A DNA stretch of 64,000 nt. Source: Octopus vulgaris (Eukaryota). Below, piece after piece: positions 14,401 through 16,221 of this stretch (position 1 is the stretch's first letter; each line of letters opens with the position of its first letter). The translations under genes and the position numbers were made by a program. The notes under the pieces were generated by a model that was not told the origin of the DNA, made no database searches, and saw nothing but the letters and a program-made list of their open reading frames with translations. The DNA lies in assembly GCA_951406725.2 (NCBI GenBank), contig OX597839.1, forward strand, positions 26,412,001 through 26,476,000, given 5' to 3'.

Positions 14401-16221
14401 GGCGTTAGGAAAGGCACCCAGGTGCAAAAATCCTGCCAAAACAGTCACAGAAGTCCAGTGGAGGCTTTGGCTTGGCCGGCTTTAGTGGCACTGCCCCACC
14501 CTTGCTAGCATGGAACGTGGATGTTAAATGATGATGATGTGATCTATATGTATATTTCACACTTTCGTAATCTCTACACAAGCAATATGTAACCTGTATC
14601 TGTCCTTTTAGAGAAATAACAAAACTAGATAGCATGGTTTACACTGTATAATTTTTGGGTTGGCATCCTTTTTGTCTCGGGAGACAATGGAGTTGCGCAT
14701 GAAGTAGTCTAGTCCGGCTTTTACATTTCATGTCCTGATACATTTCCTGCTGTGGCTGTGTAGTCCTATCCTGGACAAACACTCCCTCTGGCAGGTACCG
14801 CAAATGTAGCGAAGACTGTTCCTGGCTGGTTGTAGTGTCATAGTTTCTTGTTGACGTCTTTTCCTGTCTTTCCATTTCTTCTCTCTCTCTCTGTCACTCC
14901 TTTGTATTCCCTCTCCTACGGTACGTCGCCAGTCTCCACGGTTGCCGGCAACTGCCTCCCAACCGCTAATATTGATGTTGCAGGCCTTCATGTCCCTTTT
15001 GCAAACATCCTTGTAACGTAAGAGCGGTCTACCCACAGACCTAGTACCCCTAGCAAGCTCTCCGTAGAGTATGTCCTTGGGGATTCTGCCATCTTTCATA
15101 CGGCTAACATGCCCAAGCCATCTCATACGTCTTTGTGTGAGGAGTGCAAACATGCTTGGTATTCCTGCTTGCCTGAGGACATCTTTGTTGGGGATATGGT
15201 TCTGCCACTGTATAATATTGGATGTTTTAAACAGCAACATACATTTAGGCTGGAGAATTCAAACAGAGAAACGAAGAACAGGTTTCATTAGCATCCTATA
15301 TATTATTAACTAACGATGCTTTTTTGACTACATAAAACAAACTTATTATCAGAGAGAGATTAAAAAGAAAGAAAAAAAGGGCAAAAAAAAGGATCTTACT
15401 GCACACAGCGCGACTGTTTAACAGAGCGGGCACGACATGAATTACAAACTCGCATATCAGGCTTCACCTCTGCTTCAGTAAGAGAATACATTGAACAATC
15501 GGTCAAAGAGATTGGACGACTCATGCTGAAATTCTCCAGTTGAACTTTACACAATGCGCATTGATGTACGCCTCCACCAGCTGAAGAGAAAAACAGAGCA
15601 GAGTGAGAGTGAGGTAAAAAAACAAACCAATATTTTATGTATGCACACAGGAGTAAGCACATAAAAGCAAAACAAGGTGGGAAAAAATGGTACTCGAATA
15701 CCGAAGGTAGAGTAAGATGCTTTTATATTACAGCTGCAAAAACATAACAAAAACTGTTACTCAGAGCTTTTGTGATGTTTTTGCAGCTTTAATGTATATA
15801 TATATATATGTATATATAAAATATTATTAGAGACAAAACCACTATTTTGCAAAACAAACAAGGAAAGACTTAATCAATACATAAAATTTTAATAAATAGT
15901 CAAAAAAACCGCCACTACAATCGTTTCTTGTCTTGATCGACAATCTTCAGGTGGACTTCCAATAAGTCAGTTTCATAATTTGAAACTGACTTATTGGAAG
16001 TCCACCTGAAGATTGTCGATCAAGACAAGAAACGATTGTAGTGGCGGTTTTTTTGACTATTTATTAAAATTTTATGTATTGATTAAGTCTTTCCTTGTTT
16101 GTTTTGCAAAATAGTGGTTTTGTCTCTAATAATATTTTATAATATTTTACTATAAAATTGGATTTAATCCTAAATCTGATTTTTTTTCCCTGTAAATTTG
16201 GATTTATTCCCTGATATTTAT

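What the first reader, a model, noticed from the sequence alone, without database searches (positions are those of the whole stretch)
15815..16141. Perfect 161-bp fold-back carrying an intact hammerhead ribozyme on each strand, inside a short NCoR intron
Seen: exact inverted arms (15815-15975 and 15981-16141). Each arm contains CCAC-CUGAAGA-[UUGUC/GACAA]-GAA-AC-gauu-GU-A-GUGG, a complete minimal type-I hammerhead (+ 16002-16044; - 15954-15912, the NCoR sense strand). Known: minimal type-I hammerheads with short, palindromic stem III occur in the pLTRs of Penelope-like retroelements, whose inserts often have inverted ends. Inference: whichever strand is transcribed, the antisense arm is made first and the ribozyme arm second. 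The ribozyme should therefore be locked in dsRNA, and A-to-I editing or unwinding could unlock it. That would be a possible self-masking cleavage switch in a corepressor pre-mRNA. Zero mismatches imply recent insertion or arm homogenisation.
Basis: partly seen in the sequence, partly recalled or inferred. Interest (0 to 1): 0.85.

Follow-up and report, generated by a model that had tools for sequence, protein, structure and literature searches.

The report
Spliced Penelope stub forming hammerhead palindrome
This mirror-image insert in an intron of a corepressor gene is one of many young stubs of a Penelope-like jumping gene; it lacks the parent's intron, so it was likely copied from the spliced start of the jumping gene's messenger RNA, which bears on how these elements replicate and makes a gene-control switch unlikely.

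Summary
In detail: two identical 161-bp inverted arms, each with a minimal hammerhead, sit in a 977-bp intron of an NCoR-like gene. The arm is the pseudo-LTR of an intact 6.0-kb Penelope-like retroelement with Hydra-clade motifs (838-aa ORF, L139), minus that element's 1,816-bp GT-AG intron. The genome holds 331 arms with this splice junction and 297 intron-bearing ones. Of 70 distinct head-to-head stubs examined, 69 pair one short with one long (tailed) end, nearly all in (TA)n. The two arms share subfamily markers (54 of 55) and a rare splice isoform (10 of 10 clear loci). Copies that start at the predicted transcription start are spliced (51 versus 0). Copies that read through from upstream keep the intron (95 of 100). 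The stubs are therefore likely made from sense, spliced RNA primed twice at insertion. This explains the perfect arms without homogenisation and argues against an antisense template for these inversions. The host switch is unsupported: the ribozyme is of the dimer type, occurs once per transcript, and masking follows from the geometry of every such insertion. Cleavage, editing and capping were not tested. This scan reported similar stubs and the short/long rule elsewhere in this genome.

The parts
15815..15975 (-). Short arm: copy of the spliced 5' end of the Penelope-like element's RNA, from +12 to the first (short) end site; no tail
15972..16224 (+). Long arm: spliced 5' end from +3 through the hammerhead and the short site to the second (long) end site; 99.1% identical to exon 2 of parent L139
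15972..15975 (.). 4-nt overlap shared by both arms at the head-to-head joint (microhomology)
   Evidence: L005: overlap 4
15992..15993 (+). Exon-exon junction where the parent's 1,816-bp GT-AG intron is missing (mirror on - strand at 15964/15963)
16002..16044 (+). Minimal type I hammerhead motif with self-complementary stem III octamer; predicted cut after 16040
   Evidence: cleavage untested
15912..15954 (-). Same hammerhead motif on the NCoR sense strand; predicted fully paired with the other arm in pre-mRNA
16142..16224 (+). One-sided tail between the two end sites (inferred reverse-transcription start sites)
   Evidence: PMC11167929
15793..15814 (.). (TA)n target tract, left
16225..16341 (.). 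(TA)n target tract, right
15581..16557 (-). 977-bp GT-AG host intron of the NCoR-like gene, between the exons for the two SANT domains; insert lies about 335 nt from the donor and 234 nt from the acceptor
16558..16646 (-). Upstream NCoR-like exon
15400..15580 (-). Downstream NCoR-like exon (Cys-rich; 53% identity to P0001 residues 400-461)

Best explanation
The insert is a 410-bp head-to-head pair of pseudo-LTR copies of a Penelope-like retroelement with Hydra-clade motifs, lacks the parent's intron, and was likely made by two target-primed reverse transcriptions of one spliced, sense-strand element RNA. Shown: the parent unit (predicted start, 23-nt exon 1, 1,816-bp intron, hammerhead, short site, long site, 838-aa RT plus GIY-YIG ORF), exact loss of the intron in both arms, the short/long pairing, (TA)n flanks and arm concordance. 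Inferred: the element's protein nicks both strands of a (TA)n tract and primes at two internal sites about 170 and 250 nt from the RNA's 5' end. Both cDNAs run to or near the cap and join through 0-4 nt of microhomology. Priming this close to the cap gives short, coding-dead, spliced palindromes. Priming in the downstream pseudo-LTR, whose intron is mostly unspliced, gives the long intron-bearing copies. The hammerhead is the element's own dimer-type motif, was copied uncut, and is most likely a masked, inactive passenger in NCoR pre-mRNA. The likeliest host effect is a 161-bp double-stranded RNA that ADAR may edit (untested).
For: Parent: L139 has two direct pseudo-LTRs 5,996 bp apart around an intact ORF; the window arm maps to it in two pieces, 17 nt at 100% and 232 nt at 99.1%. 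Exact-pattern counts in G000: 331 arms with the main splice junction, 32 with a donor 4 nt further on, 297 with the intron acceptor. Splicing tracks the 5' end: among copies with the genomic heptamer upstream of +1, 95 of the 100 listed (110 in all) are unspliced, 4 spliced and 1 has a changed donor. Among copies with another base at -1, 51 are spliced and 0 unspliced (Fisher p 9e-36). Ends: 69 of 70 distinct stub pairs and 12 of 12 long intron-bearing pairs are short plus long; 67 of 70 have (TA)n at both ends. One template: a marker at 50% frequency agrees between arms in 54 of 55 pairs (27.5 disagreements expected if independent); 10 locus-private substitutions are in both arms; the 8.8% splice isoform is in both arms at 10 of 10 clear loci among the 30 of 32 arms fetched, on both marker backgrounds. 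Two primings: among 38 clean joints the short arm reaches at least 8 nt further 5' than the long arm in 9 and the reverse in 12, so in those 9 neither arm contains the other. Two internal RT starts that bound the tail, and extension of both nicked strands, were shown in vitro for an Anolis PLE (PMC11167929).
Against: No RNA reads, cap mapping or cleavage data for this family were obtained. The cap is inferred: G stands at -1 in 32 of 57 full-length spliced arms where the parent has C, but 18 of these could come from the opposite arm and only about 5 events are clean. Two alternative-isoform loci are ambiguous (L224, L227) and one locus seems discordant (L057). Five spliced arms do carry upstream sequence, up to about 300 nt before the donor, so the rule is not absolute. 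Off-centre opening and trimming of a snap-back hairpin could also give unequal 5' reach. The loci were sampled by similarity and by patterns, not at random; 27 of 65 rows were dropped as unclean joints. L138 plus L139 shows a direct arm longer than one unit with both introns kept, which needs a read-through RNA or a template jump that I did not test.
Confidence: 0.65

Rival explanations
1. Same element and same spliced sense RNA, but one priming event: the first cDNA folds back on itself near the cap, is copied to the short site, and the hairpin tip is later opened and trimmed.
For: Explains the arm concordance and the short/long rule equally well. 17 of 38 clean joints have both arms within 7 nt of each other. 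Self-priming was proposed for head-to-head PLE inversions (PMC3846280, section 11).
Against: In 7 of 38 clean joints the short arm reaches at least 40 nt further 5' than the long arm; long pairs such as L140, L141 and L148 have a short-ended arm 1.7-2.7 kb longer than the tailed arm. The commonest joint would need a 2-nt hairpin loop. Several loci keep both arms complete to +1 with filler between them (L165/L166, L167/L168, L176/L177).
Confidence: 0.22
2. The stubs are a non-autonomous family that multiplies from a few processed master palindromes, as RNA or as a fold-back DNA element.
For: High copy number and uniform outer ends. Master copies would also give concordant arms.
Against: The centre differs from locus to locus. 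Three splice forms occur, the second on both subfamily backgrounds, and both markers also occur in intron-bearing parents. No A-to-G excess that a hairpin RNA intermediate might leave: 8 A>G against 9 T>C sites in 159 arms. Intron-bearing long copies obey the same end rule.
Confidence: 0.08
3. One reading: the palindrome is a self-masking cleavage switch in NCoR pre-mRNA, unlocked by A-to-I editing or unwinding.
For: The motif is intact on the host sense strand and predicted masked. Core and stems are kept in 135 of 159 arms, and in older subfamilies loop II and N7 vary while stems persist (24 of 30 with stem I of 4 or more pairs, 26 of 30 with stem II).
Against: Dimer-type stem III with one copy per transcript (PMC4209133; PMC6765202). 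The insert is young and is one of many alike. The duplex is about 260 kcal/mol more stable than the ribozyme fold. A contig shows the intron spliced out between intact exons. Motif conservation is explained by the element's own cycle.
Confidence: 0.03
4. The palindrome is a long-read fold-back artefact of the assembly.
For: No read spanning this locus was seen; contigs of three DNA runs break before the insert.
Against: The symmetry stops exactly at the family's short site and the tail is one-sided, as at 69 of 70 loci. Pairs elsewhere carry one-arm substitutions (38 in 66 pairs). Short-read contigs of runs X1 and X20 cross a centre of this kind (not locus-specific).
Confidence: 0.01

Closest known systems
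Hydra clade of C-terminal-endonuclease Penelope-like elements (Craig et al. 2021, PMC8557442: passages, section 11, supplement part 2 of 59)
   Same: DKT, R-x-x-WK, CxCx5C linker, CxxC and CxH around the EN's E and N, no GxKF/Y motif, (TA)n targets, type I hammerhead with AC..GU self-complementary stem III; an inverted 5'-truncated copy is listed for Penelope-13_HM.
   Different: 6.0-kb unit against under 3 kb; 1.8-kb intron directly before the hammerhead; Asn-rich insert between RT and EN; hammerhead sequence differs from Hydra-1_Obim, so a different octopus family. RWK reads KWK.
Inverted pseudo-LTR with one-sided tail in Adineta Pen2a and Drosophila Penelope (Arkhipova et al. 2013, PMC3846280: passages and section 11)
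   Same: Head-to-head inverted pseudo-LTR, tail on one end only, palindromic joint, solo pseudo-LTRs.
   Different: That paper suggests self-priming on an antisense template, which would also explain intron retention. Here the palindromes lack the intron exactly, so their template was sense and spliced. Tail 83 bp against 30-40 bp.
Anolis Poseidon element PAc in vitro (Frangieh et al. 2024, PMC11167929: parts 1-2 of 4 read)
   Same: Two internal RT start sites downstream of the hammerhead that bound the tail; both target strands cut and extended; uncut RNA is the template.
   Different: In PAc the sites lie inside the ORF and the ORF starts in stem II; here both sites lie before the ORF, which starts 57 nt after the long site. 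That paper (parts read) does not describe spliced palindromic stubs.
Minimal hammerheads of metazoan PLEs (Cervera and de la Pena 2014, PMC4209133: parts 1-2 of 4 read)
   Same: Short stem I, palindromic helix III, intron end next to helix I, pairs of motifs 100-700 bp apart on opposite strands.
   Different: No G10.1-C11.1 pair and no bulge after A9 in the window copy; the origin of opposite-strand pairs was not worked out there.
Animal non-LTR retrozymes (bioRxiv 10.64898/2026.07.22.740005, part 1 of 5 read; PMC7229834, search listing only)
   Same: Non-coding, type I hammerhead, linked to PLE pseudo-LTRs.
   Different: Retrozymes are direct tandem repeats; this is an inverted pair cut from the 5' end of a coding element.
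L1 twin priming (recalled, no call)
   Same: Both nicked target strands prime cDNA and the products join by microhomology, leaving an inversion.
   Different: In L1 the two cDNAs copy different parts of the RNA; here they overlap, which yields a palindrome.

Membership tests
Penelope-like element, endonuclease-bearing | Single ORF with RT and GIY-YIG endonuclease | tested here: met
   Parent ORF of 838 aa with YRDD at 359 and VYKCIVT...YIGST at 713-735; aligns end to end with homologues. Pfam scan gave no RT or GIY-YIG hit; many homologues carry PF26215.
Penelope-like element, endonuclease-bearing | Pseudo-LTRs from partial tandem, with inverted 5'-truncated copy and one-sided tail | tested here: met
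   L138 plus L139: inverted copy, then two direct pseudo-LTRs 5,996 bp apart; 12 of 12 long pairs short plus long.
Penelope-like element, endonuclease-bearing | Spliceosomal intron near the start, inside the pseudo-LTR | tested here: met
   1,816-bp GT-AG intron 23 nt after the predicted start, removed exactly in 331 arms. Splicing not shown in RNA reads.
Hydra clade | DKT, RWK, CxCx5C, CxxC and CxH motifs; no CCHH; no GxKF/Y | tested here: met
   SDKT 127, RIKWK 41, CTCRDKSNC 689, CYLC 795, CRH 824, no G.K[FY]; the two Cys inside the GIY-YIG core of the Neptune-type ORF are absent. RWK is imperfect.
Hydra clade | (TA)n targets | tested here: met
   67 of 70 pairs with TA tracts at both ends.
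Hydra clade | RT phylogeny with the published Hydra sequences | not tested
   Reference proteins were not fetched; assignment rests on motifs.
Type I hammerhead ribozyme | CUGANGA and GAAA boxes, three stems, NUH cleavage triplet | tested here: met
   Boxes, 4-bp stem I, 5-bp stem II, GUA; core kept across subfamilies. No Rfam hammerhead hit.
Type I hammerhead ribozyme | Stable stem III as a monomer | tested here: not met
   Closing the 2-bp stem III costs 0.8 kcal/mol; the octamer self-pairs at -5.8 kcal/mol, the perfect-palindrome variant at -6.4.
Type I hammerhead ribozyme | Self-cleavage | not testable with these tools
   Needs in vitro assay.
Non-LTR retrozyme | Direct tandem monomers, each with a hammerhead | tested here: not met
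   Of 94 distinct loci 70 were inverted pairs and 24 unpaired; one short direct triple was seen later (L217-L219).
MITE or fold-back DNA transposon | Symmetric terminal inverted repeats and a fixed internal sequence | tested here: not met
   Ends are asymmetric, centres vary, and the sequence is intron-less relative to its parent.

The most novel reading that the evidence does not exclude
Penelope-like elements do copy their spliced, capped mRNA, but priming near the cap yields only dead palindromic stubs, while working copies come from priming in the downstream pseudo-LTR whose intron escapes splicing. Intron retention is then a matter of which pseudo-LTR is primed, not of an antisense template, and each head-to-head inversion is two cDNAs made from one RNA molecule.
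Probability: 0.5. Interest if true: 0.62.

Novelty: new variant of a known kind. Interest (0 to 1): 0.42.

Why it matters
How Penelope-like elements keep introns and build inverted ends is called unresolved in PMC8557442 and PMC3846280. This family gives countable genomic evidence: spliced copies start at the predicted cap, unspliced ones read through from upstream, and both arms share one RNA isoform. An intact young ORF and a 250-nt template make the idea testable in vitro. For the host, the lesson is modest: such insertions seed perfect hairpins in introns of an animal group known for heavy A-to-I editing (own knowledge), but nothing here singles out the NCoR copy.

Tried and rejected
Rfam scan of 14000-18000: only weak miRNA-hairpin matches below gathering scores, no hammerhead. 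Pfam scan of the parent ORF: no significant family. The GIY-YIG family search surfaced Neptune-type families whose pseudo-LTRs did not match the arm in the 42 loci fetched; they were rejected as parent, and the parent was found through an intron-bearing copy nested beside one of them (L101). Sequencing runs: no RNA holder listed on record; laid contigs cannot show editing, RNA ends or presence of this copy, and flanking DNA contigs stop before it, so insertion polymorphism and editing stay open. No read test of the parent's expression or splicing was obtained. I considered that spliced stubs are dead because the intron holds the promoter; PMC2377424 (passages) found transcription without the intron in Drosophila Penelope, so I dropped this. 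An ADAR signature in copies was sought and not found. The first arm-comparison script double-counted loci and was replaced. The paper on dimer cleavage by PLE hammerheads (PMC5785218) was not held; it is cited only through the review PMC6765202. Literature searches found no description of spliced palindromic pseudo-LTR stubs or of twin priming in PLEs, but the library lacks most subscription papers, including Arkhipova 2003, Evgen'ev and Arkhipova 2005 and Arkhipova 2006, and Repbase was not available; 57 of 59 parts of the PMC8557442 supplement were only searched for three terms, not read.

Full report
Observation. The arms are exact: 15815-15975 and 15981-16141, 161 nt, 100% complementary. 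Each holds the stated hammerhead motif at the stated places. The host gene is NCoR-like: P0001, a mollusc protein with a GPS2-interacting domain and two SANT domains, matches the window's - strand 11 times. A contig of run X1, RNA by guess, runs from 16558 straight into 15580, giving a 977-bp GT-AG intron. The genome is 2.8 Gb in 227 contigs; named hits of the parent protein come from Argonauta and Octopus, so an octopus is likely.

It is a repeat. The arm gave 1,300 candidates; the 40 scored gave 69 matches, many 99-100% identical and many as head-to-head pairs. In the loci fetched, one arm stops at position 161 and the other continues about 80 bp further; both then meet (TA)n. After removing duplicates, 94 loci held 70 pairs and 24 unpaired arms; 69 of 70 pairs were short plus long, and 67 of 70 had TA tracts at both ends. 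The window insert is thus 15815-16224.

The parent. Rare arms with a few extra bases starting GT, or ending AG, before the hammerhead suggested a lost intron. A copy with a long AT-rich intron end turned up in L101, and its acceptor pattern matched 297 places, many as inverted pairs 0.5-9 kb apart. L139 holds a full unit: pseudo-LTR, ORF, 3' region, an initiator-like start, 23-nt exon, 1,816-bp GT-AG intron, hammerhead, tail, (TA)n, with a period of 5,996 bp. The ORF is 838 aa and intact; L141 holds a second of 839 aa. It carries the motifs that PMC8557442 (section 11) lists for the Hydra clade, with KWK for RWK. I built no tree with published references. The hammerhead differs from that of Hydra-1_Obim in that paper's supplement. 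The window's long arm maps to the unit in two pieces joined exactly at the intron ends.

Splicing follows the 5' end. Exact patterns found 331 arms with the main junction, 32 using a donor 4 nt downstream and 3 of a third form. Of 110 copies with the genomic heptamer upstream of +1, 100 were listed: 95 unspliced, 4 spliced, 1 with a changed donor. Of 57 spliced arms that reach +1, 51 have a base other than the genomic C at -1; no unspliced copy does. The five spliced arms with upstream sequence extend at most about 300 nt before the donor and none reaches the ORF. G is the commonest base at -1 (32 of 57), as a copied cap would give (own knowledge), but 18 of these could be read from the opposite arm; about five events are clean (L038, L045/L046, L154, L055, L059). 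Older subfamilies show both intron-bearing and intron-less forms too.

One template, two primings. A stem III marker at 50% frequency agrees between arms in 54 of 55 pairs, against 27.5 disagreements expected by chance; 10 locus-private substitutions are in both arms and 38 in one; 40 of 66 pairs have no substitution between arms. Zero mismatches in the window is therefore ordinary. The 8.8% splice isoform is in both arms at 10 of 10 clear loci, with 2 ambiguous, among the 30 of 32 arms fetched; L057 looks discordant. This points to one RNA molecule. Yet in 9 of 38 clean joints the short arm reaches at least 8 nt further 5' than the tailed arm (7 by 40 nt or more), and the reverse holds in 12 (27 of 65 rows dropped as unclean). 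Long intron-bearing pairs show the same two-way pattern over kilobases and are short plus long in 12 of 12. A single fold-back would make the short arm a subset of the long one unless the tip was trimmed later. PMC11167929 showed in vitro that an Anolis PLE cuts and extends both target strands and starts at two internal sites that bound the tail, on uncut RNA. Two primings on one RNA fit all these counts; this step is inferred.

What is known. Inverted 5'-truncated copies, one-sided tails and (TA)n targets are standard for PLEs (PMC8557442, PMC3846280), and opposite-strand hammerhead pairs 100-700 bp apart were noted in PMC4209133. PMC3846280 (section 11) proposed self-priming on an antisense template to explain both head-to-head inversions and intron retention, while not excluding an unspliced sense template. 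PMC2377424 (passages) proposed selection for the intron. My ten searches found no account of spliced palindromic stubs, within a library that lacks several key papers. The stubs show that head-to-head inversions can arise from sense, spliced RNA. They do not show what templates the long copies; an unspliced downstream pseudo-LTR is my inference.

The ribozyme. Core boxes and stems are intact in 135 of 159 arms. A looser pattern found 750 further motifs; in the 30 fetched, N7 and loop II vary while stem I has 4 or more pairs in 24 and stem II in 26, with different stem sequences only in unrelated families. Stem III is a perfect palindrome in many copies and a two-wobble version in the window; it pairs with itself far better than it closes as a hairpin. 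That is the dimer type. A single minimal motif did not cleave in PMC4209133, and the Anolis motif needed the element's protein (PMC11167929). Activity of this motif is untested.

The host switch. In the folded intron all 43 nt of the sense hammerhead are paired; the palindrome is -264 kcal/mol. Masking is real in the model but follows from geometry at every such locus. One dimer-type motif per transcript has no partner in cis, and editing enough adenosines to melt the duplex would also hit the catalytic ones (own knowledge). The arms lack the element's splice acceptor, so exon trapping of the kind noted in e1-8670049 is not expected here. A plausible, untested effect is local A-to-I editing of the hairpin, 234 nt from the acceptor. 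Whether other individuals carry the insert is unknown.

Earlier notes. I looked them up after forming this reading. They report similar stubs, the short/long rule and a spliced host cargo elsewhere in this genome; a sequence look-up found no look-alike of this arm. They are unchecked AI notes and are not counted as evidence.

Verdict. Real, young, and of a known class. The regulatory reading is unlikely (0.03). The value lies in the family's record of how a Penelope-like element copies its RNA. Interest 0.42; new variant of a known kind.

Noticed in passing
window 39900-40165 (+): Older relative of the same family: intron acceptor, degenerate hammerhead with a long stem II, short end, (TA)n. 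Its stem III octamer is a different perfect palindrome with two matching changes, which fits selection for self-pairing.
   Followed up: partly
G000, e.g. L095-L102: Young Neptune-type PLE family: 16 of 150 scored GIY-YIG matches lie in a 781-aa open frame; long upstream frame; TA targets; its pseudo-LTR has no canonical CUGANGA match by my scan.
   Followed up: partly
L098:169 and 4883 against L101:4908: In that Neptune-type pseudo-LTR a GTAAAAATG motif follows the predicted start region; L101 lacks a few bases there. A possible donor, not examined.
   Followed up: no
L103:4790-4990, L068:2365-2560: Second Neptune-type family with a hammerhead (one copy with C3-C4 core change) and the same short/long inverted layout.
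   Followed up: no
L088:2250-2610: A 5'-truncated Neptune-type copy is joined head to head to a decayed stub of the Hydra-type family; either nested insertion or a template switch between families.
   Followed up: no
L062:1528-1569: A stub carries 42 nt from the start of the parent ORF, inverted, at its centre: a likely template jump within the parent RNA.
   Followed up: partly
L217-L219 (G000:C5:64451611-64451851): Three direct partial arms about 108 bp apart, each with the alternative splice form and its own small fold-back; repeated restart at the 5' end.
   Followed up: no
L139:4670-5300: The parent's 3' region holds an A/C-rich segment against a G/T-rich background, with open frames of 200-310 codons on either strand in several copies; looks like an inverted captured piece.
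   Followed up: no
L139 ORF residues about 480-600: Asn-rich insert between RT and endonuclease, like those described in Adineta Penelope ORFs (PMC3846280).
   Followed up: partly
window 14728-15258 (-): 176-codon fragment resembling the C-terminal part of a LINE reverse transcriptase (family recalled, not tested) in the next NCoR intron.
   Followed up: no
window 15400-15580 and 13100-13219 (-): Cys-rich exons between the SANT domains of the NCoR-like protein, shared with the gastropod homologue; possibly a zinc-binding module.
   Followed up: no
runs X16 and X20 (organisms C and D): Many short contigs 90-100% alike to the arm lie in DNA-sized runs of other species labels, so relatives carry the family.
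   Followed up: no
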